Shown in pieces: positions 6,946-39,100 of a DNA stretch of 64,000 bases. Source of the stretch: Octopus vulgaris. Lineage: Eukaryota. Where the stretch lies: positions 100,998,001-101,062,000 of the forward strand of contig OX597817.1 in the NCBI GenBank assembly GCA_951406725.2. Direction: 5' to 3'. The notes beneath the pieces are model-generated. The model was given only the letters and a program-made list of their open reading frames with translations. It was not told where the DNA came from and made no database searches. How positions within the stretch are numbered: the stretch's first letter is position 1; each line of letters starts with the position of its first letter. Made by a program: the position numbers and the translations under genes.

Positions 6946-6998
<53 letters not shown>

Positions 6999-7110
6999 TC
7001 TGTGTGATTGCTAACTTAGATTTTTGATATTCTTCATGTCCGAACTTAGTTTAAATAGTTATCTGTGCATAAAAATCAACAACATTCATACTTCAGTATC
7101 AAAAAAATTA

Positions 7111-7536: not shown

Positions 7537-7646
<110 letters not shown>

Positions 7647-8152: not shown

Positions 8153-8229
<77 letters not shown>

Positions 8230-8781: not shown

Positions 8782-8805
8782 AATAATAATAATAATAATA
8801 ATAAT

Positions 8806-9359: not shown

Positions 9360-9380
9360 AATGATAATAATAATAATAAT

Positions 9381-12883: not shown

Positions 12884-12889
12884 ATAATA

Positions 12890-13045
12890 ATAGCATCGAA
12901 AAATACCTTATGAATGAGAACCCAGGTTCGAAATTTCCCCAAGAAACCTGATGAAGGCTGGAGAGTATATCAGCGGAAACGTTGTGTTAACAAACAAGAT
13001 GAGGACAAATATCCGTCAAATGTAAATAATGTAAATAATGTAAAG
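12890..13045 (+). mobile_element. Short non-coding element with minimal hammerhead-like motif and tandem (AATGTAAAT) tail
   Basis: GAAAC-CTGATGA-AGGCTG(gagagtatat)CAGCG-GAAAC-GTT-GTGTT at 12943-12988; ends AATGTAAATAATGTAAATAATGTAAA. Confidence 0.5.
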
Positions 13046-13046
13046 T

Positions 13047-15517
13047 CAATATTGTTCTGAGACACATTGAAACGAAGATCATCACACAAACAAATAATCT
13101 TATCAAGGCTGCTAGTAGGATTTTGGCGGAAAGGATGGGATTGGGATCTACTGAGAATACAACAGCGGCGGAAAGAAGAGGAAATAAACAACCGTAGTAG
13201 AAAAGGAGAATTTCTGAAGATATAAACTCCTTGAGCAGTATAGTGTTAATACTTTTCAGAAAAAGAAATGGAGAACTGAAGAATGAATGGAAATTTAAAA
13301 AAGTTAGGAAGGATTATGTTGTAGATACAAAATGTTTGAAGGTTGTAATTGAAGAACAGAAGCAGCGCATACATACAAAAAAAAAGCAAAGCTAACTAGG
13401 TTTGAACAACGGATTAAGCAATACCAGCAAAACAAATTGTTTAGAACTCACAAAAAAGATTTTATGAAGAGAGTAATGACGATAAAAACGTGAAAGAATA
13501 GTCCTTGATGCTAATGAAAGTCGACTTTTGGCGGGTAAGATATTGAGTAAGCAAGAACAATATAATACTACAGCTGAATGGCTCTGCAACATGAAGCAAA
13601 CAGCTTCTTATTCCCATCAAGAGGTTATCCACTTCACAGAAGACAGTATCAGAAATATGAGTAAAAAGATAAGCAATTGGAAAGCAGCAAGGACCTGATG
13701 GTGTACAGGGATTTTGGATAAAGAAGTTCGGTAGTTGCCATAAATTGATCGCAGAACAGTTTAATGCATTGATTAATGGAGAAGATGAAATCCCAGGTTC
13801 GTTGACAAAAGGACGAATGGTGTTGTACATGAAGGATGCATCAAAGGGAAATGCTGCTGACAATTACAGACCAATTTGCTGCCTCCTGTTAATGTGGAAA
13901 TTACTGTCAGGAGGACTTGCAGAAGAACTGTATAAATTTTTTGATGAAAACGATATATTACCACTGGAACAAAAAGGCTGTAGAAAGAGATGCAGAGGTA
14001 CCAAAACTCAACTATTGAAAGACAAGGAAAATATATCTGGGAATGGCCTGAATTGACTATCGCAAAGCTTATGAAACGATTCCACATTCGTGGATCATCG
14101 AGTCCTTAGATCTGTTTGGAATTGCGAGGAGTGTAACGTAATTTCTCAAGAGAAGTATGGCGGTATGGAAAACTGAACAAACATCTTACGGGAAAGCTTG
14201 GGCACCCCGAGTATCAGAAGAGAGACTTTCCAGAGTGACAACCTCTCTCCGTTGCTTTTTTGTTCTCTGCATGATACTCCTAACCTTGTTACTCAAGAAA
14301 ATGAACCTTGGGTACCAACTAAAGGAAAAATCTCAAACAATCAACCACCTCCTCTTTATGGGTGATTTGAAACTGTATGGCAAAGTTGAGACACAAGCGA
14401 GTTCCTTGGGGAATACAGTCTACTGTTTTTGTACTGATATTAGAACGAAATTTGGACTCAAGAACTGCAGAGTAATCTACCTTAAAAGAGGCAATGTACA
14501 GTCTCTAGCAGATATAGAATAACAGAATAGAGTCTTGATTAAGCAAATTGAAGCGGAAGGATACTAATACCTTGGTGTACTAGAGTGCAATGAGATAATG
14601 GAAATGAAAGAGCAACTGAGAATGGAGTATTTTCGAAGACTAAGTTTGGTTCTGCACTCAAAATTAACTGGCTGAAATAAAATCCAAGCAGTATGAAGCG
14701 GGAATTATAAAATGGCAAAAGAGAGAAATGAAGAAAATGTATACCAAGACCAGAAAAATATTGATAGCACCCGGAGCCTTCCACCCTGAGTGACACCGAT
14801 AGGCTGTACTTGTCCAGAAGAAAGGGTGGGAGAGGTTTGATCAGTTGCCAAGACTATATCGAAGCAGTGGAAAACAGGCTAGGAGTTTTATATAAAAAAT
14901 TCTTTGGAGCCACTGTTGAAACACACGACGAAGGTCGGCGTCATCAAAACTGAAAATTGTGTAACTAAAGAACATTTTAAACAAGAAATGAACGTAAAAA
15001 AAGCATGTAAGGAAAAAAATGTACGGTCAGTTTGCAGAGATGTGAAAAGTCGAGACATATACAGAGGACCAGTGGCTATGGATGAGGAGGAGTGACCTGA
15101 AGAAAGAGACAGAAGCACTCCACTCATGTAGGCAGATCAGGAGCAAGCTGATATAAGATATAATATGCATGATTATCGACATAGCATGCCCCGGTGAAAA
15201 CAGGATCAATGTGAATGAAGAAGCAAAAAAAACCTCGACGATTGCAAGTGGGATATACGAAGGTTGTGGTCAATGAAGAAAGTAGACGTGATACCAATAG
15301 TAAATGGCGCACTTAGAAGTATCAGCACTCAACTACAAACATGGCTGAAAAAGATCGGTGCAAGCATGGAGGTAGAATACCTACAAAAATCAGCATTGCT
15401 TGGAACTGCAAGAATTCTTCGCAGGGTTCTTGAAGCATGATCAGTAAACAAGTGTCACCTTAGTCTGCTGGCTGTGGACAGCTGACACTTTCCACCATAC
15501 CCCAGCAAAATAAGCTC

Positions 15518-17449: not shown

Positions 17450-18231
17450 TACATTATGATTTTACATAAAATATGAATATAAAAATTATCCAAAATATTT
17501 TAAAAATCGAATGAAATTAACAATACAGAGACAACACAAATATAGCGATGATCAAGGCCACGCTCCGACCCCACAAGCCCCGATCTATCGCTTGTACCTT
17601 ATTTTTTGTTCTTCTTTTATAGCCTATTCACACGGTTCCTTGCACACACAACACTTGTGCAACATGCTTCCATCACCTTTTGAACATACTCTCAGACAGA
17701 CACCTCTTCTCCAGCCATACCTTCCTTTTCAAACGAAAAGTAAAAAATGATCATAAATCGCGGCCGGAGATAAAGTTGCCTGTCTTAATCTCTTTTATTA
17801 TCCTAGTCTTCCATACTGCCTCTTTCGCTATAGCTACAACTGTGAGAAAACATTTCTTACTTTCGTTTGTTAAAACTTCCGGTGGATCAATTTTTATTAT
17901 TGACTCAGTCCACAGCTGTACTCTTCCTTCGCCGGACAACAGGTGTTCAGCATAAACCCATATATCAGATATCTCCGGACACTGGACAATAGCGTGAGGG
18001 ACGGTTTCCCTGTCTCCCCCGCATCTTGGACAGGTTAGAGACTGACGCTTACCATGTCTTGCGAGCTTATCCCAAACGGGCAAGGCACCTCTGTAACATT
18101 GCCAGTTCAAGGACTTTTGGAAGTTGTCCAACGTTCTCAACCCGAACGTAGGATGGAACAGGCTGTCCAGTTGAATATACCCGAGACCTAGAGTCCCCCA
18201 GATCAAGGTAACATTTAGACTATACCATCGT

Positions 18232-18232: not shown

Positions 18233-18281
<49 letters not shown>

Positions 18282-18292
18282 TTTATAGAAGG

Positions 18293-18343
18293 AGCTTCTA
18301 CAGGACTAGAACTGTTTCATTCAAATGAAATCATCAGGAAGCT
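18293..18343 (-). ncRNA. Type I hammerhead ribozyme (PLE A)
   Basis: Minus strand AGCTTC-CTGATGA-T-TTC(attt)GAA-T-GAAA-CAG(ttctagtc)CTG-TA-GAAGCT: 6-bp stem I, intact core, GUA triplet. Confidence 0.85.
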
Positions 18344-18556
18344 TGGCGTCAAGAATAGTTTTGGCATTTATACATTTAGGCAGATTTGATGGGGTGGTGG
18401 TGGGGGACTTTTTTGGGGTAGGCAGGGCACAAACTGTCTTTCTTAGGGGAGTGGTCAAAAGAATCAGTGATAAAGTAGATAAATGAATAAATAGAATAAT
18501 AGAATAGAGTTTTAGGTAAATAGGAAGACTATTGCTTATATATATATATATATATA

Positions 18557-18894
18557 ATTAATCAATATAGGGTGGCAAAAAAAATTTTGTAGAATTCTTT
18601 TGCCACCAGCGGCCTAGTAGGAAAAAATTAAAATAGTCATAGACCATTTTTAAGTTCAACATCAACAATAAAGGAACGGCCATAATAGGCCATTCACCCA
18701 CTAGAAATAACAGCCAAAGCTTCAACCGCAAATAAAAGTTAATTCAGTAAACCAGGAGAAAATTTAAAAAATTACAGGGTAAATGTTTTTTAAATTTTCT
18801 CCTGGTTTACTGAATTAACTTTTATTTGCGGTTGAAGCTTTGGCTGTTATTTCTAGTGGGTGAATGGCCTATTATGGCCGTTCCTTTATTGTTG

Positions 18895-18896
<2 letters not shown>
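18557..18896. repeat. Miniature fold-back element: 111-bp perfect inverted repeat plus ~100-nt one-sided extension
   Basis: 18661-18771 = revcomp 18786-18896 with a 14-nt loop; flanked by (TA)n; shares CTAGAAATA(A/G)CAGCCA and an ATTGTTGAT(AT) end with 25597-25802. Confidence 0.85.
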
Positions 18897-18932
<36 letters not shown>

Positions 18933-19191
18933 GTATACATATACATATGTATACACATATACATATGTATACACATACGCACACACACACATACACATAC
19001 TCATACACACACACTTATATACATACGCACATATATATATATACCTACATATATATACAGATACACATACACATACATGCCAACATGCAAGCACACGCAC
19101 ATATATATCTACACATATATATATATATAAAAAAAAGGAATATACACACCCATACACACACACACACATACATATACGCATGCATATATAC

Positions 19192-19272
<81 letters not shown>

Positions 19273-19980
19273 CACATACATGCACATATATACACACACA
19301 TTTTCTCCCTTATTTTATTTTATTTTTATTTTTATTTTATTTTTAGTTTGACCTCTTCAGAATCATAGAAGGTGTAATATATGACCTGCCCACTCGCCGA
19401 CACACATTTAGTGGCGCTGGAGTAGCCGTTCACCGGGGTGCTAGCCGGTCTGAATGAAATCCATTTACCGCCCCTCTCTCTTCCTTCACACTCATACACA
19501 TACACAAAGACATATGTTCTCTCGCTCATTTCCTTATCAGCCACTCATACTTATGTATGTATCTCTCTCTATACAGGCGCATATATACGTATATACATAT
19601 ATATGCATATATGTATGTACATACATATACACACGCAAGTACACATATTCATACATACATAAATGTACCCACTTTCACATAAACGTATACATAACTATGT
19701 ACACACAAAACCACATATATAAAAGTACTTCAGTACACATAAACACACATGAACATCTGCCCGCATATGTACACGCATATGCTTATAAATACATATATGC
19801 ACACATGCGCGCATACACGTGTACATAAAAGCATACCTACATATACATACCTACACACATATATATATCCACATACATGCACGTACATACACATGCGTTC
19901 ACGTACATACAAATATATATCTACACACATACACATACATACATATATACACATACAGAGATCTACAAGTCCTTATATAT

Positions 19981-20027
<47 letters not shown>

Positions 20028-20110
20028 GGTCCCGGGTTGATTCGGGGTTAACCACAGTAAATAAGGTACTCAATACATAGCAGAGTAAAATTAATTTATT
20101 ATATAGAAGG

Positions 20111-20161
20111 AGCTTCTACAGGACTAGAACTGTTTCATTCAAGAGAAATCTTCAGGAAGCT
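20111..20161 (-). ncRNA. Type I hammerhead ribozyme (PLE D)
   Basis: AGCTTC-CTGAAGA-T-TTC(tctt)GAA-T-GAAA-CAG(ttctagtc)CTG-TA-GAAGCT on the minus strand. Confidence 0.85.
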
Positions 20162-21329
20162 AGTTAACAAGAATTGTATTGGCATTTATACATTTAGGCA
20201 GGTTTAAAGGGGTGTTGGTGGGGGACTTTTTGGGGGTAGGCATAGCGCAAAATATCATACTTGGGGGAGTGGTCAAGGAGTCAGTGTTAAATTAGATAGA
20301 AGAATAAATAAAAAAAAAAAAATAAAATAAAAAAATAAAAAAATAAATAAAAAAATAAAAAAATCTATATATAAAAAAAGGGGAATAGAGTTTTAGGTAA
20401 ATAAGGAGATTCTCACTTATACCTATGCACACATGTATACATACATACACACATATACAAACATATATACATATACATACACACATACATACACACACAT
20501 ATATATACATATATATACACTTACACATACATATACATATCTACACATACACATATATGTATACATACACACACTCACATGCATACACGTATACACACAT
20601 GTATATATACACACACGACCACACATACATATACGCACAGAAAAATATATATACACATACACACACATACTCACATACACGCATACACACACGTACCACA
20701 CACACACACACACACAGCACACTAGTCCCTATATACACATACACACACATATACACACACACACATACATATACATACATGTATATATATATATACATAT
20801 ATATACATATGTGTACCTATGCATACCTACACACACACACATATATATACACATACAAATACAGACCCATTCCCTAATTTTAATTTTATTATCTTCGTTT
20901 ATTACTTTTGTTATCTTTGGCCGCTTGGTCACAAACATCTTGGCTATGACAGCCAGTCCATTTATCTGTCTACTGGAAAACAAGCACTCATTCACTCACG
21001 CACACTCTTTAGCACGTACACTCACTCATTCGTACACTCATACACATACACGCACGCACGCGTTATATTCATACATACATACATCTACATACATTCACGT
21101 ATATACAGATACGTACGCGTACCTACAGATTCATGTCTACACTCTTAGAAGGCTAGTCTATATATATACACCAATAAATATAAATACACACACATACATA
21201 TACACCTACATACAAATACATACATGTATATATATATATATATATAAAAAAGTTGAGTTGTGGGGTATCGCACGAGTGGGATTATATAAGAAAAAAGGTT
21301 TGAAAATGCAATTTAAACGATGTTTATTT

Positions 21330-21370
21330 ACTTAACCGGTTTCACTCTTTGGTAAAAGATTGTCAAAAGT
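21330..21370 (-). ncRNA. Degenerate minimal hammerhead-like motif
   Basis: ACTT-TTGACAA-TCTTT(tacc)AAAGA-GT-GAAA-CCG-GTT-AAGT; core has two transitions from CTGACGA; palindromic stem III (AACCGGTT). Confidence 0.45.
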
Positions 21371-21383
21371 TACATTTAAGGAA

Positions 21384-21612
21384 ACATTGAATAATATGGG
21401 TTCAAAAAAGTTTTTTACATAATTGTCACATTGAATATTATGCATTCAAAAAAGTTTTTTACATAATTGTCACATTGGATATTATGGGTTCAAAAAAAGT
21501 TTTTTACATAATTGTCACATTGAATATTATGCATTCAAAAAAGTTTTTTACATAATTGTCACATTGGATATTATGAATTCAAAAATGTTTTTTTATACAT
21601 AATTGTCACATT
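21384..21612. repeat. ~44-bp minisatellite, 5 copies
   Basis: Unit ACATTG(A/G)ATATTATG(GG/CA)TTCAAAAAAGTTTTTTACATAATTGTC. Confidence 0.9.
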
Positions 21613-22158
21613 ATTTGGGAAAATTTGGCAGAAAAGGATAAAACAAATATATTATTGGGAATTGGTTGCGTTAATTATTGGTTGTCGCAAATTGTCACAT
21701 TACATGTATATATATACAATCTTTGGTATATATATACAGCGTTTTGACAGCAAAAATTAAAATGGATTTTTTGTACATCTCAGAATATTTTAAGTATGTT
21801 TTTACTGACCTGTCAGTATTAGCAGAAAGGCTGAACTGAGAGAACAGAAGAAGTAGCCAATGTGGTGTATACTTCCCCTTTATGCATGAATGATTTTGGG
21901 GATATCAGGAGGTTAGTATGCGGGTGTGAATAGATGTGTCCGTGCCTGCTGGTCAGACAGTGTCTGTTTGTCACACACATATATATACACACAAACACAC
22001 ACACACACAACAACACACACACACACACACATAGTATACAAACAACACACACACACACAGAACACACACACCCACACACAACGCACCCACATATATCACA
22101 TATACACACAGCACACAAATATAACATGTATCTATATATAACATACACAGATATATAA

Positions 22159-22211
<53 letters not shown>

Positions 22212-23019
22212 CACACGCACACATACATACATAATATAAATATCACACAAATACACCTAGCATATATATACACACATACAATACACACATACAGCATGTA
22301 AGTAATATACATACACAATATATGCATGCAATATACATACGCAATACATACATATAATATATATATATATAGACAATGCATATACATATATACACATATA
22401 CATATAAATAGTGTTTACATACACATACATAGATGTACCACATATACACACAACACACATACATACAATGCATACACATACACGTACGCATACATATAAT
22501 ATATATATACACACACACACACATAACATACATACACACACAATGCATACATATATATACACGCAATGCATATACATGTATTCATGCACATATAGCACAC
22601 CTACAATATACATATATACAGTGCACACATACACACAAATATATACACTTAATTGTACACGTACATATACAATACACATACATACAATATACATATACAC
22701 AATGCGCATGCAAATAATGTACATGTTTATACACACATAAACATGCAAATAAATATACACACACACACATACACACACACACATATATATATACACATAT
22801 ATATATATATATATACACACATACATACATACATACATACATGCACATACATATATTTTTTCACACACATACACACACATATATATATATAAAAAATTCA
22901 CCCCCCCACACACAAATTACAAACCTATAGCGTACACACTCAAATATATCTCTACATACCGCACACACACACAAACAAAGTACTAACAAATACACACATA
23001 CCATGCATATACACACACA

Positions 23020-23067
<48 letters not shown>

Positions 23068-23232
23068 GATACATATGTAAATACATACACACGTACACAA
23101 TGCTCACACACACACACACACATACACACACACCCGCACACAGTGCACACACACACACACATATATACACACGTGCACACACACACACATACAACGCGCG
23201 CACACACACATATACACACACACGCACACAGT

Positions 23233-23264
<32 letters not shown>

Positions 23265-23405
23265 CACTCACACACATACATCACCTACATATATATAATG
23301 CATGCGTGTGCATGCCACGTATGTGTGCGGTCAATGCCCGCTAGTGCACACACACACACACATACAACGCGCGCACACACACATATACACACACACGCAC
23401 ACAGT

Positions 23406-23445
<40 letters not shown>

Positions 23446-23889
23446 CACTCACACACATACATCACCTACATATATATAATGCATGCGTGTGCATGCCACG
23501 TATGTGTGCGGTCAATGCCCGCTAGTGTGTCCTATGCGTGCCGATGCGCGCATGTGCCCGCCCGCACGATATGCTGTGAGCGTGCGCGCGTCCCTGTGTG
23601 CTTGCTCTGGATGTGCTTCCAGGGAGTATGTTAGAGTATGTTTAGTTGTGGTCTGTATTTTTGAATAAGATTACTTTCCTTATTTATTCGTGTTTGGTCT
23701 GTGGTGTTGTCCGAGCATTGGTATAGTGGGAAGACTAAGAATTTGGGGGACTTATTGTGTGCACAAAGGTCTAAGTGTCCACTTAGTGGTATCTGTCTTG
23801 TGGAGGGGTCCCTCAGTTGTTGTCGGTGAACTAATCCCATAAAAGGCAAAAACAAAACCTTAGACAAATTTTGGACAAATTTCTGGTAC

Positions 23890-25020
23890 CTTTTAAGGTA
23901 CCAGATGTGGGCGGCGAGGGTAGTTTGGTTGGATTTATCCTGTCGCCGGAACGAGTGTGTGTGTGCGTACCAACGAGTCTTAAAGCTGTTTGACGTCATT
24001 CCTATGTAGGATTTTCTTTTATCGTCAGGGCCTGATCTTACCTCGCATGTATATACTAGGTCCCTCTGTAGGCAGTTGTTGTTGAGGGGGCAGGTGGTTT
24101 TATCAGGGCAGTTGCAATTGCTATCGGACGTTGGATGGGCCTCGGAAAAAGTAGATATGTTAAGTTTTTTCACATTGTTGTTGGCTAGGTTCCTGGCTAG
24201 ATTGGGCGTGGTAGAGTAGGAGAGTCTAATAGTGTTCTTATTTAGGATAGTGTAGTACTTATGTTGGGTGGGGAAGTGTTTCTGTAGGAGAGTGAAGAAG
24301 ATTTTAGCTACAGGTGTAGCGACCTCACGGTTGAAGGGGGGTTGTACCAGCTAATGTGTCTTCGTCTATTTTTCCTGGGTTGGCGTGGGGCTATACTAGT
24401 ATAGGTAATCTTATCTTTGAAGCCACTGCGGGCCAGGGCCTCGTTGTAATAGGGGGCTGCGGCCTTAAAGATATCTTCCGTGGCGGACAGGCTAGAAATT
24501 CTAATTGAGACACTTTTTACTAGGTTATCTAATATATTTTTGGGGTGGTTGGAATTAATATCTATATATTTAAGGGATTCATTCGGTTTGTGGTACGGGT
24601 AATAAAGTGAGGTTTTTAAGTCGAGGGTGACATCAAGGAAGTTAGCTTTAGTTAAGTTGGATTCTAAGGTAATCCTAAGGCCTAAGTTTTTAAAGAAGGT
24701 GTAAAGATTTTTCCGGAACCCATCCGTGGTCCTGGGGTTTATTTTGTGGAGGGCGAAAAGGCCGTCATCGCGGTAAAGACCACCGGAGAGGCCTGTGAAT
24801 AGGGTTTTCAGCCTATGGAGGATGAAAAGGCCCACTAGGTCACTTATTTCAGCAGAGTCGTTAGCACCCATGCTGACGTCTAAGGGGGTCACAGATTTTT
24901 TGTTGATCCAGTGGGATCCGTCATAGAAAAGAAAAGTCTTACGTGCGTGGAGGATCACATCTTGCTCGACCTCGGTGATGGTGGAAGACCTCCTGGCGAA
25001 GTTAATCGCGTCGATCAGCA
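23890..25020 (-). pseudogene. PLE reverse transcriptase (motifs B-E, thumb) + Cys-rich linker + GIY-YIG, frameshifted
   Basis: LLIDAINFA..ILHARKTFLF..LDVSMGANDSAEISDLVG..GLYRDDGL..NFLDVTLDL..YHKPN..SNHP..WYNPP; then CNC..CPL..C, VYTCEV, YIGMTSNSFKTRWYAH..LAAHIWYLK. Confidence 0.9.
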
Positions 25021-25411
25021 AGCTCTCGTGGAAACTACTACAGAAGGCGCGCTCGTACACAGGAGGCCATACCTGCTGTGACCTCTGCATATCGGAGAGC
25101 CTAGAGATCTTGTTCGCCAAAGGCCCTCTCCTTAACAAAATCTCAGAACACTCCCCAAATTGTATGCATAAGAAGTATGCGAACTACAAGAACTATAGAC
25201 CTACCCGGCAACCAGATTGATGACCCCCCCCCCCCACAACCCCCCCAATCCCACCGTTCCCCTAGCACCCCCGTTTACCTTTTCTCCTAAGACCTTTCAC
25301 ATATTGTATGTGCACGCTTGTATATGTGTATCGTATATATGTATAGAAATGTATGGGTATAGTAGGATTATACGCATGTATTATGTGTGTGTGTGCGTGT
25401 ATGTATGTAAA

Positions 25412-25466
<55 letters not shown>

Positions 25467-25468
25467 GC

Positions 25469-25501
<33 letters not shown>

Positions 25502-25939
25502 TAGATGTATGTATGTATATATGTATGTATGTGTGTATGCATATGTATGTGTATATGTATGTGTGTATGTATGTGTATGTATGTATAAAATATTATATAA
25601 TTAGGGCTTAGTAAAATAAATTACTTTGCCACATACTGAACTTTCTAGAAATAGCAGCCAATAAAGTTTTTTAGCCTCTTCCACTACTTAGAGAATATTT
25701 TCCCTCAGACATTGTTTACTCATAAAAATAATGGTCCTTTTACATACTGAATACTTGGTGAAATTGATTAATAACTAATTAACTTTACCCTCAATTGTTG
25801 ATATACGTATGTGTGTGTATATATATGTGTGCGTATGTGTATATGTACATGTATGTATATGTGTATGTATGTATGTATGTATGTATATGTATATATATAT
25901 GTATGTATATGTATATATATATGTGTATATATATATGTA

Positions 25940-26010
<71 letters not shown>

Positions 26011-26255
26011 GTATGTGTGTGTATATGTGTATTATATATGTATAGATTTATATATATGTATATGTATGTGTATATGTATGTGTGTGTGTATATGTATATA
26101 TGTGTATATATATGAGTGTACGCGAGTATGTCGATGTATATGTAGGTATGTAGAGTTATGTGTATGTACAGGTATGTGAGTGTAGATACAAATTGTAGAT
26201 GTGTATATATATGTATGTGTATATATACATGTATATAGGTATATGTATGTGTGTG

Positions 26256-26300
<45 letters not shown>

Positions 26301-26391
26301 GCGAGTATGTAGAGATATAAGTATGTGCATGTGTATATGTATATGTGTGTATATATATGTATGGGTATGTGTATGTGTATGTATGTATGTG

Positions 26392-26432
<41 letters not shown>

Positions 26433-26889
26433 ATGTATGCATATACGTATGTATGTATGTATGTATGTACATGTGTATGTATATATGTGTGTAAGTGTGT
26501 GTATATATGTAAATGTAAGTGTGTGTGCTTGTATGAGAATGTATGTATGTTTGCACACATGTATATATATGTGTGTGTATGTGTATGTGTATATATGTGT
26601 GTATATATGTATATATATATATATATATGTATGTATATATATATATATATGTGTATGTATATATATGTGTATGTATATATATGTGTATGTGTGTGTGTGT
26701 GTATACATGTGTGTATGTGTATGTATGTATGTATGTATATATATGCGTGTGTATGTGTATGTGTATGTGTACATATACGCGTACGCTCGTGTGTTTATGT
26801 ATATGTAGGTACGTAGAGTTATCTATGTGTGTATTTATATGTACATGTGTGTAAGTATGTATATATATATATATATATATGTGTGTGTA

Positions 26890-26950
<61 letters not shown>

Positions 26951-27604
26951 ATGTGTGTAAGTTTATATGTATGTATCCGTCTATATAATAGGTAACTGCA
27001 CGTACATATACTTAATATTTATTATTTATCTTTTGAGTATGCATGTATGAATAACTGCGCGTATATATATTTTACTATTTACTTATTTTTTGAGTATGCA
27101 TGTAAGTATGAATATAAGGAGGCGCGTGTGTGTGTGTGTATGTGTAAGCATAGATATATGTATACTTCTACGCATGGGTGTACTTATGTGTATATATGGA
27201 TGCGCGCGCGTGCGTGTGTGTATGGGTACGCATGTACATGTGTATGTGCGTGTATGAGTATATGAGTATGTATGTATGTGTGTGCGTATATTTGTATATG
27301 TATGTATGTATATGTATGTGTGTGTATGAATGTGTGTGTATATGTGTATATGTATGTATATATATGTATATATATATATATATATAGATATATATATATA
27401 TATGCGCGTGTATATATATGTATGTATGTGGGTGTGTGTATGTGGATAAATGTATGTATGTATGGATGTATGGATGTATGTATGTATACGTATGTATGTG
27501 TATGTGTGTATATGTATGTATGTGTATGTGTCTATATATATGTATATGTGTGTGTATGTGTATGTGTGTGTATGTGTGTATGTATATGTATGCGTATATA
27601 TATG

Positions 27605-27659
<55 letters not shown>

Positions 27660-28734
27660 ATTTGTATGTAGGTGTATATGTATGTGTGTGTATTTATATT
27701 TATTGGTGTATATATATAGACTAGCCTTCTAAGAGTGTAGACATGAATCTGTAGGTACGCGTACGTATCTGTATATACGTGAATGTATGTAGATGTATGT
27801 ATGTATGAATATAACGCGTGCGTGCGTGTATGTGTATGAGTGTACGAATGAGTGTGTGTACGTGCTAAAGAGTGTGCGTGAGTGAATGAGTGCTTGTTTT
27901 CCAGTAGACAGATAAATGGACTGGCTGTCATAGCCAAGATGTTTGTGACCAAGCGGCCAAAGATAACAAAAGTAATAAACGAAGATAATAAAATAAAAAT
28001 TAGGGAATGGGTCTGTATTTGTATGTGTATATATATGTGTGTGTGTGTAGGTATGCATAGGTACACATATGTATATATATGTATATATATATATACATGT
28101 ATGTATATGTATGTGTGTGTGTGTATATGTGTGTGTATGTGTATATAGGGACTAGTGTGCTGTGTGTGCATGTGTGTGTGTGGATACGTGTGTGTATGCG
28201 TGTATGTGAGTATGTGTGTGTATGTGTATATATATTTTTCTGTGCGTATATGTATGTGTGGTCGTGTGTGTATATATACATGTGTGTATACGTGTATGCA
28301 TGTGAGTGTGTGTATGTATACATATATGTGTATGTGTAGATATGTATATGTATGTGTAAGTGTATATATATGTATATATATGTGTGTGTATGTATGTGTG
28401 TATGTATATGTATATATGTTTGTATATGTGTGTGTATGTATGTATACATGTGTGCATAGGTATAAGTGAGAATCTCCTTATTTACCTAAAACTCTATTAC
28501 CCTTTTTTTATATATAGATTTTTTTATTTTTTTATTTATTTTTTATTTTTTTATTTTATTTTATTATTTTATTTTTTTATTTTTTTATTTATTCTTCTAT
28601 CTAATTTAACACTGACTCCTTGACCACTCCCCCAAGTATGATATTTTGCGCTATGCCTACCCCCAAAAAGTCCCCCACCAACACCCCTTTAAACCTGCCT
28701 AAATGTATAAATGCCAATACAATTCTTGTTAACT

Positions 28735-28785
28735 AGCTTCCTGAAGATTTCTCTTGAATGAAACAGTTCTAGTCCTGTAGAAGCT
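28735..28785 (+). ncRNA. Type I hammerhead ribozyme (PLE D)
   Basis: AGCTTC CTGAAGA TTTCTCTTGAAT GAAA CAGTTCTAGTCCTG TA GAAGCT; predicted cleavage after 28779. Confidence 0.85.
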
Positions 28786-28796
28786 CCTTCTATATA

Positions 28797-28835
<39 letters not shown>

Positions 28836-29172
28836 CACACATACACGCATACACATACGTATATACCTACATATACATACACATATACATATACATATAC
28901 ATATATATACCAATACACACATATACATATATATATACATATATACACATACATATACATACACATACATATACATATATATACACACATACATACATAC
29001 ATACACCCTCCCACATGTATACAGGCATATACACACTTATACATACATATACATATATATATACATATATATACACAAATACACGCATATACATATATAT
29101 ATACATATATACACCGGTACACATACGCATACATAAATATATACCCACACACATGTATACAAGCATATACAC

Positions 29173-29247
<75 letters not shown>

Positions 29248-29748
29248 GACACACACATATACATATATATATACATATATAGACCAATACACATACGCAT
29301 ACATAAATATATACATATGCATATACACACAGGTATACAAGCATATACAGACATATACACATACACACACATACACATGCATATATACACATGTATATAT
29401 ATATATACATATACATACATATATATACACACAGACACACACATATACATATATATATACATATATACACCAATGCACATACGCATACATAAATATATAC
29501 ATATGCATATAGACATGCATACATATACACACACACGCGCGCACCTATATATACATAAATACATACAAGCATACATACATATACATATACACATATACAT
29601 ACATGCATACACAAATAATAAATATATATACATGCAGATACCCATACTTACACATACATATACGCGTACATGCACATATACACACAGATATATACACACA
29701 AATATACACATACATATATACATACATATATACATATATATACATATA

Positions 29749-31092
29749 GAAATTCAGGGTGAGTACTTGATAATTGTAAGCACCTGTATATACCGTTTGG
29801 TGGTGTAGGTGGTGGAGTAAATTAATCAAAATAAAAACACAATGCCAAGGATTCAGCGGTACATATGTTTCGGGCCTTTATTAGACGGATTTATAACAAT
29901 GCATAATGTGTGTCTATGGCCTTCTTCAGCCGCGCACAACTACTACCTCAAGGACATGTATTACATAAAAAATTCTACGTTGGGGAAGCAAATCCTCTCA
30001 TTCGCGTACGACACAATGCGGCAACAGCATAAAAATGAAGCGTCCATCTCGTCCTTCTCTCAATGTAGAATGAGGAAGTTTGGATGTTGAGGTAATATAA
30101 ATAAATGAATAAATAAATATATACATATATAAATACAGACAGACGTGAAGGAACCTGGTAATAAGAGCAAATAGGGATAAAGATGGAGGGGCGAGAATTC
30201 AGGACGAAGGATAAAAAAATATATAAAAAGTGTAAGTATAGAAAAATATAAAAATGTAGAGTATAAAGATATAAAGAGATATATAAAAAAATATAAATGA
30301 ATATAAAGGTATAAAGTTATAAAAAAATAAAAAAATAAAAAAAATAAAAAAATAAAAAAGATTATCAGAAATATAAAGGGTATAAGAGTGTAGGAATGTA
30401 AAAGAATATAAGGATAAGGGATATATAGTAGTTACGGACCAACATGGTGGTCAGGAAAATGACAAATTCTGGTTCTAGAAGGCTTGGGTGTCATAAATCA
30501 ACCGGGGCGTCTGGGAACCTAGTGTATTGTAAATTAGAGTTGTTTGGTTGAGCTGTTTATCTAGTTCTTCGTAACGTGTTAAGTGGTCATCATGTACATA
30601 CGTACACGCATGGATACATACACCCATATCCACGCGCACATATACGCACGCATACGCAACTACACGCATACAATCATACATACGTACTCTCGTGTAAACA
30701 TATACAGATATACATGGAAAAAAGCGCATGTAGTTGGGTACACGAACCGACGCGTATACGTACGTACATACATACATACACTCATATGCGTTCATATAGG
30801 CACACTCGCACTTACACGCATGTACAAGACGAAGTGAATCTCTATGCGTGTGGGCAGGAATATGTATATACCTGCACTCGCGTCCACCTCCACGCACATG
30901 GGGGAGTAGATCCCTATGCATATACACAAAAGTATGCATATGCACAGACACAGGTGTAACAAAAGGATCCGTTCTCGCACACGGGCAAGATACGGAGTCA
31001 TAGTGGGTACATTAGGTAGACATGAACGTAAGAAACTTGCGGGCAAAAGATTTTAACAGAATATGCATATATATACACGGACAATATACATA

Positions 31093-31124
<32 letters not shown>

Positions 31125-34100
31125 TACGCATATATATATACACATATATGTATATATATATATGTATATATATACATATACACACATATACATACAGACA
31201 CATACACACACCCATACCCGCACACGCACATATATATATGTGTGCATACATACACACCCACGTGTACATACATACACGCATACATACATACACACGGACC
31301 CACGCACACGTATCCACACGCACACACACACACATCTGTGTGTCTATACGTGCGTGTGCATATACACTTACATACACATACACAGACACACACACATATA
31401 GGTATAGATATAAGATATTAAAAGATGTATAAAAAATGTATATAAGAAATCTACAAACGCATGTAAAAAAAACGGACCCACGCACACGTATCTACACGCA
31501 CACATACACACATCTGTGTGTCTATACGTGCGTGTATACATACACTTACATACACATACACAGACACACACACATATAGGTATATATATAAGATATTAAA
31601 AGATGTATATATAAGAAATCTACAAAAGCATGTGAAAAAATTATAAAAAAAGTATAACGGGGGGGTACACATATAAACACAGATATTTACTCATACATAC
31701 GCATACACATATATACATATACATATATACACAGACACACGTATAATCATAAAGCGGATACATAGTTAAGTAAACAAGGAAAAAAGCTAAAAATATACAT
31801 ATATAGAGATATAAAGTGATAGAATAGGGGTAAAAATAGGAGTAAGAATAAGGGTAAGAATAATAATTAGAAATAAAAATAAGAAATAAAATATAAAATA
31901 TAAAAATTAAAATAAAGAATAAAAATAAAAATAAGAATAAAAATAAAATAAAATAAAATAAAAATGTAATCGGGTAAAGCTTAAAATGAGATGAAGGTAA
32001 AAATAAAGGGTGGTTGAAAATGTAAAGTTATAGGTGTGTGTTAAAGGTGACCACGTAGGGGCGGGCGGGGGGAACTGAGAATTGGAAGGGTGGGAAGCGG
32101 GGTTTGGTGGTGTGCGCTCAACATCAGAGTTAGAAATGGAAAAAGGTATAGATATAGGGAAACAAAAAATCTAGATAGGAAGAAGGTAGGTGTAGGAGAA
32201 GAAATATATAGGAAAAAACATATATGGGAGACAAAATATGTATATATAGGAAAATATATATAGGGAAACGGGATGCGCTGGAGCCGACAGGTTGCACTTG
32301 GGTGGGAGGAAATTGCATGGGGGAGTTGGTATAATAGCCTAAGTTTTGTAGTATTTGAAAGTATTAATAAGTTTCTGACCTTTTGTTAATAAGATTGTGT
32401 TTCTCCTTGAATTTCAAGATATTCAGGAGTTCTACACAACATAGTTGGCATCCTGCTCTAATATTTAAATAAGGTGCAGCTGATCCGATGATGGACCACC
32501 TGAGTTTGAAACCTATGCTTTTGTCTTTTAATTCCCAAATTTTCTTAGAAAGGGAAGTGCTGCTAGCTTTATGTCTATGCTTAAACGAGGACCGGTGGTT
32601 GTGGTATCTAGATTTCCAGGAGGTCGAGCAACCTATGTAGGTGAGTGTGTTAAACTGGGTACTCACCTCACATGAATAGATTACGTTTTTCGCCCTACAT
32701 ACACCACGTAGCGGACACTCGGATGCACATATGCAGTTGCAGTGCACTGCATTTTCCGGTCGTGTGTTGTTAGTCCCAGGCGGAGGTGTTGCATTAAGTG
32801 TAGGGGCACTATTATCCTCCTGGTTGTTGATTGGTGTGGTGTTGCCTCTGTTGTGTTGGCGGGTGTTATTACTAACTGTTTGGGTATTATGGTTGCCAGC
32901 CCGATTATATTGACTACTGTCTGGATGAATGGGGTTCGATTGGTTGTTATAGCCTGCTCTTAATCTAGCTGTTCTAATGTTAATATAGATATGCTTAGCT
33001 ATGAGGCAGCTCATGTTGGGCAGGGTAGAGTAGGAGATCCTAATGGTTTTGTTGGAGAAGATACTTCTATACTTATGGGTGGGTGGGAAGTTGTTGGAAA
33101 TGATAGAGAATATTCTCTTACATAATTTACCCCTAACTGCTATGTTGTATGGTATGTTGTACCATATATATTTGCGTAATCTACTATTTCCGCCTCTATT
33201 TCTCCTAATATGATCTGTGTTGCTCTCGTCGAAAGGGTTATCATTGTGTACTATTCTATTGGTTCGCCTTTTTCCTATACGTTGCTTAGAAGTTAAATTA
33301 GAATTAGCGTTAGCTTGGGTTGAATACGGAGTTCGTTTATAAGTGGGAGTTTTACAGCCGACGGACGTTCCTACATGCGCTTTTTTCCATGTATATCTGT
33401 ATATGTTTACACGAGAGTACGTATGTATGATTGTATGCGTGTAGTTGCGTATGCGTGCGTATATGTGCGCGTGGATATGGGTGTATGTATCCATGCGTGT
33501 ACGTATGTACATGATGACCACTTAACACGTTACGAAGAACTAGATAAGCAGCTCAACCAAACAACTCTAATTTACAATATACTAGGTTCCCAGACGCCCC
33601 GGTTGATTTATGACACCCAAGCCTTCTAGAACCAGAATTTGTCATTTTCCTGACCACCATGTTGGTCCGTAACTACTATATATCCCTTATCCTTATATTC
33701 TTTTACATTCCTACACTCTTATACCCTTTATATTTCTGATAATCTTTTTAATTTTTTTTTTTTTTTAAATTTTTTTATAACTTTATACCTTTATATTCAT
33801 TTATATTTTTTTATATTTTTTTATATATCTTTTTATATCTCTTTATATCTTTATACTCTACATTTTTATATTTTTCTATACTTACACTTTTTATATATTT
33901 TTTTATCCTTCGTCCTGAATTCTCGCCCCTCCATCTTTATCCCTATTTGCCCTTATTACCAGGTTCCTTCACGTCTGTCTGTATTTATATATGTATATAT
34001 TTATTTATTCATTTATTTATATTACCTCAACATCCAAACTTCCTCATTCTACATTGAGAGAAGGACGAGATGGACGCTTCATTTTTATGCTGTTGCCGCA

Positions 34101-34285
34101 TTGTGTCGTACGCGAATGAGAGGATTTGCATCCCCAACGTAGAATTTTTTATGTAATACATGTCCTTGAGGTAGTAGTTGTGCGCGGCTGAAAAGGCCAT
34201 AGACACACATTATGCATTGTTATAAATCCGTCTAATAAAGGCCCGAAACATATGTACCGCTGAATCCTTGGCATCGTGTTTTTAT
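29749..34285 (-). mobile_element. Penelope-like element E with ~900-bp inverted pLTR
   Basis: 29831-30733 = revcomp 33371-34285; GIY-YIG ORF between the arms; TA-rich flanks. Confidence 0.85.
32364..33370 (-). pseudogene. PLE C-terminal region with GIY-YIG endonuclease (5'-truncated, open frame)
   Basis: RKYIWYNIPYN..FPPTHKYRSIF..IRISYSTLPNM..CNC..CPLRGVC..VIYSCEV..YIGCSTSWKSRYHNH..LSKKIWELK..CQLC..E..LINKRSE; the first ~50 aa of the listed ORF come from the inverted arm. Confidence 0.88.
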
Positions 34286-34462
34286 ATATACATATATATA
34301 TATATATAAATATATATACACATACACAAAGCATACAAGCGTACATATATATACACCCATATACGTATACATACATACATACAAACACATAGATCGACGC
34401 ACATAAGCACATACAAATATATATCCATATCCAAATTCATATTCATATTCATATCCGAATTT

Positions 34463-34495
<33 letters not shown>

Positions 34496-34784
34496 CATAT
34501 ACATACGTAAATACACATACACATATACATACGTGTATTCGTATCCACATACGCACACTCATATCTACATTTATACACATATATATACATGTGTACATAT
34601 ACACACCCATTAACATATACACATGCATATACCTACACATGAATATATATCCGTGTACACACACACACATACACTAGTACATATACATACACACCCACAT
34701 ATATCTATAAATACATATATATATATATATACATACATGTACATATACATTCACATACACATACACAGATATACATAGATACAT

Positions 34785-34847
<63 letters not shown>

Positions 34848-35650
34848 TAAAGCCATGTACACATATACACATACACACGTATACACGCCTTCACATACAC
34901 ATGTACATACACTGTTGCACATGCGCTCACATACAAATACGTATATGCACTCGTATACATATATGTACGCACACACACACATGCAAACATCCATATATAT
35001 GTGAATAGTCGTAGGAGAGAAGGTAATTGGGGGTGCTGAAGGAAAGGTGGGGGTGGGGTGTTTTTGTGGGTGGGGTGTCGTCAATCGGGATGCCTGGTGG
35101 GTCTGTAGTTTTTGTAGTTTGCATAAATTTTGTGCATACAGTTTGGGGAGTGTTCCGAGATCTTGTTGAGGAGAGGGCCTTTGGCGAACAAGATCTCCAG
35201 GCTCTCAGAAATGCAAAGGTCACAGCAGGTATGGCCTCCTGTGTAAGCCCGCGCTCTCTGTAGTAGTCTCCACTTGATCTTGAAGGGGATGGAGTTAAAA
35301 TAAAAATAAAATAAGGGAGAAAATGTGTGTGTATATATGTGCATGTATGCGTGTATGTATGTGTATATATATATATATGTGTGTATGTGTATGTGTGTAT
35401 ATATGCATGTGTATATGTATGTGTGTGTGTGTGTGTATGGGTGTGTATATTCCTTTTTATATATATATATATGTGTAGATATATATGTGCGTGTGCTTGC
35501 ATGTTGGCATGTATGTGTATGTGTATCTGTATATATATGTAGGTATATATATATATGTGCGTATGTATATAAGTGTGTGTGTATGAGTATGTGTATGTGT
35601 GTGTGTGCGTATGTGTATACATATGTATATGTGTATACATATGTGTATGT

Positions 35651-35713
<63 letters not shown>

Positions 35714-35905
35714 CAATAGTCTTCCTATTTACCTAAAACTCTATTCTATTATTCTATTTATTCATTTATCTACTTTATCACTGATTCTTTTGACCACTCC
35801 CCTAAGAAAGACAGTTTGTGCCCTGCCTACCCCAAAAAAAGTCCACCACCACCACCCCATCAAATCTGCCTAAATGTATAAATGCCAAAACTATTCTTGA
35901 CGCCA

Positions 35906-35956
35906 AGCTTCCTGATGATTTCATTTGAATGAAACAGTTTTAGTCCTGTAGAAGCT
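35906..35956 (+). ncRNA. Type I hammerhead ribozyme (PLE A)
   Basis: AGCTTC CTGATGA TTTCATTTGAAT GAAA CAGTTTTAGTCCTG TA GAAGCT. Confidence 0.85.
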
Positions 35957-36038
35957 CCTTCTATAAAATAAATTAATTTACTCTGCCATGTATTGAGTAC
36001 CTTATTTACTGTGGTTAACCCCGACTCAACCCGGGACC

Positions 36039-36097
<59 letters not shown>

Positions 36098-36100
<3 letters not shown>

Positions 36101-39100
36101 ATCGTAACATTCAAACTATAAAATCCGTGTAGAACCTCCACCGCTGGCGTTGCTCGAGCGCCTAAATAGCAGGATGGCCTTACGGCATTTTTTATGCCAT
36201 TCACTTGACCTCAGTCTACGAAAACACCAAGCTTCTTGTTCGCAAAAACTTTTGAACTCGGGGAACATTTGTCTGGCCAGCGGAGACCACACCCGTTCAC
36301 CATCAACGTATGACTGCGCATCATTAACCAAGGCATCCCTAAACCTCCCTTTAACAGCTTTTGATAAAAGACAGAACGTTTCACAAGTGGCGACCTGCCC
36401 TTCCACAAAAAGCGAAAGAGCTGTCTCTCCAACCTGATCAACCACGAATCCGGACAGGGCACGACGGTCAGGAGGTAGGTAATGACCGATGACATAAACA
36501 CATTGGCCGCCTCCGCCATCCCTTTCAGGGATAGCTACCACCAAGACCAGGTCTTGACTACTGCAGCCACCCTGCTCGAAACCTCCGTCCAGTTCTTCTC
36601 TTTCTGGAGGCCTGGTCTAACCAGACTCCCAGCAAGTTAACCACTCCCTCTTTCCAGCGCCCAGCAACGCTGTCTGAAGGCATTGACTTGCCAACCCTGG
36701 TGTCGAACCTTTCCCGGTTAATCTTTGCTCCTGCCACAAACTTGTAAACTTACTCACTTCACGTAGGCGTGCTAATGTGTTTACGCTGATTGTGATATCG
36801 TCCGAGTAAACTGTAACAAACTCCTCTAAACCTGATTGTCTCGGATGCCACTCAACCTTCGCAGTAGGGTCTCAAGAGCCACCACACGCAAAAGTGGTAG
36901 GAGCGGATATCCTTGACAAACCGAGCGCCTGATGCAGAACGGCTTCGAAAGGAAACCCAAACTATCGAGTCAATGTTGTGATACAAAGCGATAAAGCACC
37001 TGCGGAAGCCAAGGCCTAGGCCGAACTGTGCAAGCACAGTCGCCAGGCATCGATGGTCAATCCTACAAAAAGCTTTAGACTGGTCCAAATGTACCAATGC
37101 CCCACCTCTATGGTATAGCAAATAAGGTGGAGATTATCCTGAATAGTTTTGCCTGGGATGGCACATATCTGTACCTCTCCGACTATACCATTCGCGTCAC
37201 GCGCCAACCTTTTTGCAAAGACCTTGGGTAAAATCTTCACTTTTGCGTTTAACAGAGTGGTGGACCTGAAGTTATCTAAAACGTCCCCCTTGTCCGGGTC
37301 TTTTCTGATCAACGTCACTACTCCCCGGCGCTCAGACCTGGGGATAAACCCATTCTGTTGCCAGTTCGCGTACACGTCAGCCAGTAGGTGCCCGAACAAG
37401 TCTGGCATACATTTATACAGCTCGTACGGAAGACCAACAACTTCCGGCGACTTATTCGCTTTACAAGTCGGCCATAGCCTCCATCTCCTCCACAGGTGTG
37501 ATCGGCCCTTCGCTTCCGACCACGAGAGGCACGGCAGCCCGGCAAGAAAGTCCTCGAGGACTCCCCCACCATCAGGACCGCCATGACCCCTGAATAGCTG
37601 GACGAAGTACTCCCGAAAGGCCTCACACATGTCCTCGGGTTCGTTTACCAGGACACCATTTTGATTCGTCCAAACTATTTCCTTGTCGAGCTTCCCCCAC
37701 TCGGACCCATCCAGCGGCCTTGATTCCTTCACTTCCCATCGCACGTAACTTAGCTCTGGCAATACTTCCCATGTGTTGGGCTTCAAGATGCTGGTTTAAC
37801 TCCAGTTTCTTCACCTTCACTTGGTCCACGTTACCAGTCCTCCAGGCTTCTTCTAGTACCTTAACTAGACCATCTCTTATTCTACGTCCATTCTTAGCTA
37901 AACTTATGCTAAACCTAATAGACTAATATTGTATGGCTCTTTTTAGGGCGTACCACAATTTGTTATTAATGATGGTACCTGTCAATGCCCTCTGTGTTAA
38001 CATTTCTTTCCGCTTTCTGTGCTTCCCAATCGCCAAAAGGGACGTATTGAGTTTCCAGTAGCCCGATCCCTGTCTATGCAACTTATCTACTGTCAGCTTA
38101 CAGGTAACCATATTGTGATCATTGTAGCTGACTAGATAAATTGTGGACACTTATCTGTTTTCCTCATTAAAACCGTATCGAGATATGTTTTGGAAGACCC
38201 GTCATTATTTGACCACGTTCACTGTGGAGTGTTCGGGTGTTCCAACATATTTGGATCTGGTAACTGAAAGTGACTTAGCAGATCCCGTAAGCCAGGGTTA
38301 CATTTTCTATTCATGTTCCAGCCAACACAATGTGTGTGTACGTCACAGATTGTGTTCAAGCCTCTTATCAGTATTAGCGAATGCGACGTGGACAGGAACT
38401 TGCCCAGATCACGAAAATACTCACTTTGCGGCCATAACGTTGAGTGCATAAATTGCAACCAGCCTGATTATCTGAATGTCAGGTCGAGGACGACCAACTT
38501 GCCTTCTGGATCAGAAACAAACAACTTTTTGGGGGGGCTACCCGGTTTCGTTTTAGTAGGATCAACATCCCACCCCCACCTTCCGCCCGTCTCGGAGAAA
38601 AGTATTTCTCATAGACGTTCAGGAGGTGGGGCAGATCTCTTGGTCCATTCACCCGGCTTTCCGTTGCAACAATCACATCCAATTTTCTTGACCTGATGTC
38701 ATTTAAGAAGCGTCCTTGCTTCCAACTAGACAGGCCACGAACGTTTATACAACCATTGTGAATAGACATTACTTACATATTTAGTCCGGGGTGTCCTGTG
38801 GAGAGGGACTCTCTACCTTTTCTTGACATAGGGTCGGAGGTGGCAAGTCTTGAAAAATGAATTGATTAAAGTCCGATCTCATCATCGACACCGACTTTCT
38901 ATACGTGTTAAGTAATACATTATGAGTCTTTTTATCCATTTCGTAGAACTCGTAATTCTTATATTTATCAGAAAGTTCTGCAATCCTAGTGGCTGACTTT
39001 TCGCTTTAATTTCTCTCATTAAATCTTCATTTTTACTGTATAACGCGACTATCCCTCTGTTTTCTGCTTCCTTCCTTACTCTCCTTCTCCTCACCATCGG

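What the first reader, a model, noticed from the sequence alone, without database searches (positions are those of the whole stretch)
18293..35956. Four hammerhead ribozymes that vary only at unconstrained positions
Seen: copies at 18293(-), 20111(-), 28735(+), 35906(+) all fold as type I hammerheads with a 6-bp stem I (AGCTTC/GAAGCT), CUGANGA, GAAA, a 4-bp stem III and GUA. A and D differ inside the motif only at core N7 (T/A), loop II (ATTT/TCTT) and one loop III base, while the adjacent flank differs (CGCCA vs TAACT). Established: PLE pLTRs carry minimal hammerheads (Cervera and De la Pena 2014). Inference: purifying selection on self-cleavage. The U-U closing pair of stem II is atypical, and the CTAG in loop III could allow dimeric folding.
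Basis: partly seen in the sequence, partly recalled or inferred. Interest (0 to 1): 0.75.

Follow-up and report, generated by a model that had tools for sequence, protein, structure and literature searches.

The report
Nested Penelope insertions carrying conserved hammerheads
The four hammerhead-ribozyme motifs are real, but they are the mirror-image ends of just two nested, broken copies of a common Penelope-like jumping gene, a known arrangement; the one unusual point is a longer third loop plus a neighbouring hairpin that is predicted to keep this ribozyme switched off.

Summary
All four 51-nt type I hammerhead motifs are present at the stated places (chance 0.03 per shuffled window). They are not four independent copies: A/D and B/C are the inverted arms of two nested insertions of one Hydra-clade Penelope-like (PLE) family. 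B and C are identical and A and D differ by one base; the differences quoted for 'A vs D' are really B/C vs D. Constraint is still supported. The two subfamilies differ at 0 of 38 core/stem positions, against 22 of 125 flank and 20 of 63 third-codon positions. Thousands of contigs in five laid runs show no listed core variant. The tail is equally conserved, and no linked compensatory change was shown. The U-U pair is a Hydra trait (14 of 26 published rows). What differs is an 8-nt loop III, likely from a 6-nt duplication, which lets stem III fold as a monomer, and an 8-bp hairpin just downstream that is predicted to mask the cut site. Cleavage is untested. The scan noted Hydra-type fold-back insertions with hammerheads before, on other DNA of this genome. 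Verdict: new family of a known kind, with a modest variant worth one bench test.

The parts
18293..18343 (-). Hammerhead A (subfamily 1), on the tail-less inverted arm of the outer insertion; predicted cut between 18299 and 18298
35906..35956 (+). Hammerhead D (subfamily 1), on the tailed arm of the outer insertion; one private loop III change; predicted cut after 35950
20111..20161 (-). Hammerhead B (subfamily 2), on the tailed arm of the inner insertion; predicted cut between 20117 and 20116
28735..28785 (+). Hammerhead C (subfamily 2), identical to B, on the tail-less inverted arm; predicted cut after 28779
35948..35965 (+). Predicted 8-bp hairpin covering the cut site and the 3' strand of stem I (same in A 18284-18302, B 20102-20120, C 28776-28794)
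   Evidence: variant pattern in run X11
35974..36042 (+). PLE tail of the outer insertion (about 70 nt, two small predicted hairpins), then (TA)n
   Evidence: many contigs leave into (TA)n at 35973
20026..20093 (-). PLE tail of the inner insertion, 3 substitutions in 84 columns from D's
18276..19326 (-). Outer insertion, inverted arm (3' UTR + pLTR), 94-99% identical to 35297-35973; interrupted by a palindromic insert at 18557-18886
35297..35973 (+). Outer insertion, 5'-truncated main arm
35081..35296 (-). Endonuclease C-terminal piece (CxxC..E..N..CxH) that begins the outer insertion's inverted arm at the inversion junction
20094..21246 (-). Inner insertion, main-arm 3' end, 98.1% identical over 1172 columns to 27631-28802
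23889..25027 (-). Inner insertion: 5'-truncated RT (YRDD), thumb, CxCX5C linker and first half of the GIY-YIG-type endonuclease; one frameshift near 24335
25020..28802 (+). Inner insertion, inverted arm: endonuclease C-terminus (25020-25219), about 3.5 kb microsatellite-rich 3' UTR, pLTR with hammerhead C
18221..18231 (.). Candidate target-site duplication, left copy of an 11-bp direct repeat found only twice in the window
36095..36105 (.). Candidate target-site duplication, right copy
29751..34285 (.). A third nested inverted Hydra-type insertion of another family (arms 29831-30733 and 33371-34285, 96.8% alike; endonuclease piece 32364-33521 -; own hammerhead, core broken in one arm)

Best explanation
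The four motifs are type I hammerhead sequences in the terminal repeats of two nested, 5'-truncated, inverted insertions of one Hydra-clade Penelope-like family; the motif was likely kept by selection in the active parent elements, where it is predicted to cut the element's RNA only slowly or conditionally, and these genomic copies are likely inert. Steps: (1) shown: each insertion is a tailed main arm plus a tail-less inverted arm, in (TA)n, the inner one inside the outer one's 3' UTR; (2) from the literature: this layout and a hammerhead in the pLTR are standard for PLEs; (3) shown: core and stems are unchanged between subfamilies that differ by 18% in the flank and 32% at third codon positions; (4) inferred: the ribozyme trims tandem or read-through precursor RNA at GUA; (5) predicted: because loop III is 8 nt, stem III can close in one molecule, but a downstream 8-bp hairpin and a weak 3-bp stem II keep most RNA uncut until a second copy or the element's protein refolds it.
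For: Arm identities and tail asymmetry. RT/EN pieces match a 12-protein profile at E 5e-88 to 4e-10; nearest homologues 38-54% identical among the 120 listed, with RWK/RWR and DKT motifs; window pieces carry CxCX5C and CxxC..E..N..CxH, the Hydra traits of PMC8557442 section 11. Divergence contrast. Of 51 motif positions, only N7 (22-34% of depth in three runs) and the last stem I base (24%, run X11 only) exceed 5%; none of the 12 core positions is listed at 1% (5 rows not shown) or 2%. In X11, another organism label, depth falls from 2.4e5 to about 15 within 20 nt 5' of stem I while ribozyme and tail stay covered. PMC11167929 reports a PLE hammerhead that cuts only with the element's protein and is not needed for insertion in vitro.
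Against: No cleavage data. No linked compensatory change: every stem pair is invariant among the four copies. The tail is as conserved as the ribozyme (3/84 vs 22/125, p=0.001), so the whole 3' end may be kept for reverse-transcription start or by exchange between subfamilies. The contig tables miss clustered changes (the known loop II difference is not listed in either call), so invariance is overstated. The catalytic stem II register has predicted probability 0.01-0.07 in the truncated motif, and lacks the usual G10.1-C11.1 pair. No intact ORF is in the window; clade membership rests on motifs, not a tree.
Confidence: 0.85

Rival explanations
1. Built-in off switch: the family gained a monomer-competent stem III through a 6-nt duplication, and the downstream hairpin is selected to block premature cutting (or to release the product after cutting).
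For: Stem III hairpin -1.4 kcal/mol here; positive or impossible in 19 of 19 other PLE-type hammerheads tested. Hairpin over the cut site -5.9 to -6.1 kcal/mol, p 0.003-0.013 against 300 shuffles; next best of the 19 is p 0.056. P(stem I) falls from 0.91-0.98 to 0.01-0.04 with 12-25 nt of 3' flank. In X11, 13 of 24 sites around it vary, but its six central 3'-arm bases do not (p 0.003) and the seventh changes only to a G-U-compatible base.
Against: Noticed after the fact; p 0.003 over 20 families is about 0.07. No covariation. 4 of the 19 others also lose stem I in context (L128, L134, L129 6326, L136 1818), so misfolding in context is common. The same bases overlap a TATA-like word and lie just before the end of tail-less copies. 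Five table rows were not shown.
Confidence: 0.3
2. Obligate double hammerhead: two tandem copies pair through the 16-nt stem III/loop III segment and only then cut.
For: Self-duplex -12.8 kcal/mol; double-hammerhead fold -24.0 to -25.6 vs -17.4 to -24.4 for two monomers in A and B; loop III nearly invariant; metazoan PLE hammerheads cut as dimers (PMC4209133).
Against: Inactive co-folds are lower still (-27.4 to -33.6); D's change removes the gain (-17.0 vs -18.2); the paired arms here are antisense.
Confidence: 0.4
3. The motif no longer cuts; its conservation reflects a 3'-end block (motif plus tail) kept for protein binding, priming or promoter use, or homogenised between subfamilies.
For: Tail as conserved as the motif; a 23-nt identical run also lies in the 5' flank; hammerhead mutants did not affect insertion in vitro and no reads ended at the cut site for the anole element.
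Against: The three subfamily differences inside the motif all fall on N7 and loop II (3/13 vs 0/38, p 0.014); a pure homogenisation would not sort changes by ribozyme anatomy.
Confidence: 0.15
4. The four copies are host-selected ribozymes at this locus.
For: None beyond intact cores.
Against: Arms are 98-99% identical over flank and motif alike, as expected of young insertions; the neighbouring family's arm has already lost core G8; no host exon was recognised among the ORFs looked at.
Confidence: 0.03

Closest known systems
Hydra-clade C-terminal EN+ Penelope-like elements (Craig et al. 2021, PMC8557442; read: passages, section 11, File S1 Hydra sheet, File S2, passages of File S4)
   Same: CxCX5C linker, CxxC and CxH around E and N, (TA)n targets, tail on one arm, inverted 5'-truncated copy (as in Penelope-13_HM), type I hammerhead 3' of the ORF; U before and after stem II in 14 of 26 rows; ACAG/CUGU stem III in 4 rows; 3-bp stem II inside U-U in Penelope-9_HM.
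   Different: Loop III 8 nt (1-3 nt in all 26 rows); 3' UTR of 3-3.6 kb filled with microsatellites (published families mostly under 3 kb in all); hammerhead differs from that of Hydra-1_Obim, so another family.
Minimal hammerheads of metazoan PLEs (Cervera and De la Pena 2014, PMC4209133; read: parts 1-2 of 4)
   Same: Type I motif in the pLTR, also in opposite-strand pairs; N7 variable; palindromic word in loop III.
   Different: Not minimal: stem III has 4 bp and can close as a monomer, like the fungal and protist PLE motifs of that paper; stem II is short and lacks G10.1-C11.1.
PAc Poseidon element of Anolis (Frangieh et al. 2024, PMC11167929; read: passages and second half of main text)
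   Same: Tail between two reverse-transcription starts fits the tailed and tail-less ends here; hammerhead predicted misfolded without help.
   Different: Other clade; its ORF starts inside the ribozyme, which is not evident here.
Hydra-type elements in host-derived contigs L128-L136
   Same: Hammerhead 100-200 nt after the ORF match in 7 of 15 loci; L135 has the same stem III without the 6 extra bases; L134 has the same U-U plus 3-bp stem II.
   Different: Stem III plus loop at most 10 nt; no significant hairpin over the cut site.

Membership tests
Type I hammerhead ribozyme | Core CUGANGA, GAA, UH with stems I-III in type I order | tested here: met
Type I hammerhead ribozyme | G10.1-C11.1 pair and loop II/stem I tertiary contact of canonical motifs | tested here: not met
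   stem II is U-U plus 3 bp, no bulge in stem I; PLE motifs are described as lacking the tertiary contact
Type I hammerhead ribozyme | Covariation in the stems | tested here: inconclusive
   no stem change among 4 copies; unlinked hint of A-U to G-C at the end of stem I in X11
Type I hammerhead ribozyme | Self-cleavage after GUA | not testable with these tools
   needs transcription assay
Penelope-like elements (EN+) | PLE-type RT with C-terminal GIY-YIG-type endonuclease | tested here: met
   Pfam gave no RT or GIY-YIG hit for these pieces
Penelope-like elements (EN+) | pLTRs, inverted 5'-truncated copy, tail at one end | tested here: met
Hydra clade | CxCX5C linker | tested here: met
Hydra clade | CxxC and CxH either side of conserved E and N | tested here: met
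Hydra clade | RWK and DKT motifs | tested here: inconclusive
   region lost by 5' truncation in the window; present in nearest homologues
Hydra clade | Insertion into (TA)n | tested here: met
   all four arm ends run into (TA)n
Hydra clade | Placement in an RT tree with reference clades | not tested
   reference proteins seen only as cut supplement text
Non-LTR retrozymes | Short non-coding head-to-tail monomers, each with a hammerhead | tested here: not met
   copies are inverted, kilobases apart and joined to ORF pieces

The most novel reading that the evidence does not exclude
A metazoan PLE family that escaped the obligate-dimer design: a 6-nt duplication gave its hammerhead a stem III that folds alone, and an 8-bp hairpin over the cut site took over as the safety catch, to be opened by a second copy or by the element's own protein binding the tail. 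It would be a small natural ribozyme switch that times cleavage in retrotransposition, and a direct handle on what PLE hammerheads are for.
Probability: 0.25. Interest if true: 0.55.

Novelty: new member of a known kind. Interest (0 to 1): 0.3.

Why it matters
The role of hammerheads in Penelope-like elements is still open (PMC8557442 suggests they may even be passengers). The subfamily contrast here is one more sign that the motif is constrained. If the long loop III and masking hairpin work as predicted, the family offers an easy test of how cleavage is held back until the right step. Otherwise it is an ordinary abundant repeat.

Tried and rejected
No genome is held for this window, so no genome-wide copy alignment. 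Rfam: 0 matches. Pattern scans: 120 metagenome and 5 viral loci; among the 94 matches my slightly narrower re-scan recovered, none continued as this hammerhead. Viral contigs: 24 candidates, 0 relatives. Idea that the masking hairpin is clade-wide, raised by eye from File S2: rejected, 0 of 19 other hammerheads reach p<0.05. For that panel I used 16 of the 27 non-window rows, dropping 9 repeats or near-repeats of a family, one alternative register (L131) and one implausible hit (L140). No RNA holder listed on record; run X7, guessed RNA, has 106 contigs on the stretch but cannot show transcription or ends. No pile-up of contig ends at the cut site was listed. Lunse et al. on PLE hammerhead variants (PMC5785218) is not held; it and Repbase may already hold long-loop variants. 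Literature searches: (0 papers with 'loop III'); PMC13282606 on Octopus repeats has no mention of ribozymes (passages). Earlier-finding look-ups near this place and by sequence were blank.

Full report
Observation. The four 51-nt motifs lie where stated and have the type I hammerhead anatomy described. A strict descriptor finds them and one more motif of another family; 100 shuffled windows give 0.03 hits on average. Rfam does not detect them and their folding energy is ordinary. The comparison in the finding is mislabelled: A vs D differ at one loop III base, B vs C at none; N7, loop II and the flank separate A/D from B/C.

Anatomy. Self-alignment shows nested inverted repeats. Outer insertion: a short main arm 35297-36042 (+) ending in hammerhead D and a tail of about 70 nt, and an inverted arm that starts with an endonuclease C-terminus at 35296 (-) and ends tail-less at hammerhead A (18276). 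An 11-bp direct repeat found only twice in the window flanks the unit (18221, 36095); the left flank codes a zf-RVT domain. Inner insertion: main arm on the minus strand with 5'-truncated RT, linker and half the endonuclease (25027-23889), ending in B and its tail (20026); inverted arm from the endonuclease C-terminus (25020, +) through a microsatellite-rich UTR to tail-less C (28802). B's main arm is interrupted after the endonuclease half by the 3' part of a different element (23880-21249). A third inverted insertion of another family sits at 29751-34285. All arm ends run into (TA)n. PMC8557442 describes this layout, an inverted 5'-truncated copy with a tail at one end, as typical (passages). 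So the four motifs come from two events.

Family. The RT piece has 394 longer homologues at E<=1e-20, the best 54% identical. They carry RWK/RWR and DKT; the window pieces carry CxCX5C and CxxC..E..N..CxH. These are the traits given for the Hydra clade, with (TA)n targeting and canonical hammerheads (section 11). No tree was built. The hammerhead listed for Hydra-1_Obim is different, so this is another family. I was not told the host; earlier notes of this scan call the genome an octopus, which I did not test.

Constraint. Between the two subfamilies: 0 of 38 core and stem positions differ, 3 of 13 other motif positions, 22 of 125 flank positions, 20 of 63 third codon positions of the endonuclease piece (9 of 23 four-fold sites), and 3 of 84 tail positions. 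The stretch is held by 20 of 24 listed runs under five organism labels. Laying six different runs gave 106 to 13,397 contigs each. No core position is listed as variable; N7 varies in 22-34% of depth in the three DNA-type runs; other motif sites stay at or under 2.3% except the last stem I base in X11 (24%). In X11 coverage ends at the 5' edge of stem I, while ribozyme and tail remain covered. Limits: contigs, not copies; clustered changes are clipped (the known loop II difference is never listed); 5 rows were not shown; the tail is just as conserved; no linked covariation was seen. D's loop III base is private, and the neighbouring family has lost G8 in one arm: genomic copies decay, so any selection acted on parent elements.

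What is and is not unusual. In File S2 of PMC8557442 14 of 26 Hydra rows have U on both sides of stem II, one of them with a 3-bp stem, and 4 have the same ACAG/CUGU stem III. The U-U pair is therefore a clade trait. Loop III is 1-3 nt in all 26 rows, and stem III plus loop is at most 10 nt in 16 hammerheads from host-derived contigs in prokaryote bins and 3 other window families. Here it is 16 nt. Alignment with L135 shows exactly 6 extra bases, and the sequence reads as a tandem duplication with one change, whose junction creates the CUAG (inference). Stem III then has a negative hairpin energy (-1.4 kcal/mol), unlike all 19 others. Directly 3' of stem I lie 8 bases complementary to the cut site. 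With them, predicted stem I pairing drops from 0.91-0.98 to 0.01-0.04. This hairpin beats shuffles only in this family (p 0.003-0.013; 0 of 19 others under 0.05), and in X11 its six central bases are invariant amid 13 variable sites of 24. Against: post hoc, no covariation, 4 of 19 others also lose stem I in context, and a TATA-like word overlaps it. The catalytic stem II register is also weak (0.01-0.07 in the truncated motif).

Mechanism. Most likely the parent element's RNA carries this ribozyme to trim tandem or read-through precursors, slowly and conditionally: as a dimer, as shown at low rates for other metazoan PLE motifs (PMC4209133), or with the element's protein, as shown for the anole element, where cleavage was not needed for insertion in vitro (PMC11167929). 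Reverse transcription from two fixed starts, at the tail end and about 20 nt past the ribozyme, would give the tailed and tail-less arms (inference from that paper; contigs leave into (TA)n at the same base). The four copies here have no intact ORF and are likely inert.

Novelty. Hammerheads in Hydra pLTRs and inverted insertions are in print, and the scan has noted them on other DNA of this genome. I found no paper on a long-loop, hairpin-masked variant, but Lunse et al. could not be read and the supplements of PMC4209133 were not opened. Verdict: new member of a known kind, interest 0.3; switch reading 25%, worth 0.55 if true.

Noticed in passing
window 51969-54370: Another inverted Hydra-type insertion (arms 99% alike over 1047 columns, endonuclease C-terminus at 52977-53165, tail on the right arm) with hammerheads at 52033(-) and 54227(+) whose stem II has only 2 bp.
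   Followed up: partly
window 29856-29933 (-) and 34183-34260 (+): Hammerhead of a second family with a 51-nt stem II region and a fully palindromic 8-nt stem III; the right-arm copy has lost core G8.
   Followed up: partly
window 21249-23880 (-): 3' part of a different PLE (other endonuclease C-terminus, clade not determined) replacing part of B's main arm; carries a U3-A8 variant hammerhead at 21366(-). An 11-nt fold-back marks the junction near 23880-23905. Template switch or later insertion with deletion.
   Followed up: partly
window 35974-36000, 20070-20093, 54290-54325: Tails of two families share a 5-bp UACUC/GAGUA hairpin placed just after the point where tail-less copies end; possible protein or priming signal.
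   Followed up: partly
window 23887 and 35296: The endonuclease half in the inner insertion stops one or two codons before the place where the outer insertion's inverted piece starts; may be chance.
   Followed up: no
window 626-891, 5008-5368, 18557-18886, 43884-44146: Short fold-back palindromes beside microsatellites; no hammerhead found in them by the descriptors used.
   Followed up: no
window 12948-12990 (+): Core-like CUGAUGA with a 5-bp stem II, in which the GAAA is preceded by a mismatch; probably a decayed minimal hammerhead.
   Followed up: no
L126-L139: Contigs in GTDB bacterial bins that carry animal-type Penelope elements with hammerheads, likely host DNA in the bins.
   Followed up: partly
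window 9358-14522, 57759-59551, 17751-18230, 36110-37795: Decayed non-LTR retrotransposon pieces (RVT_1 and zf-RVT hits); the outer insertion appears to sit inside one of them.
   Followed up: no
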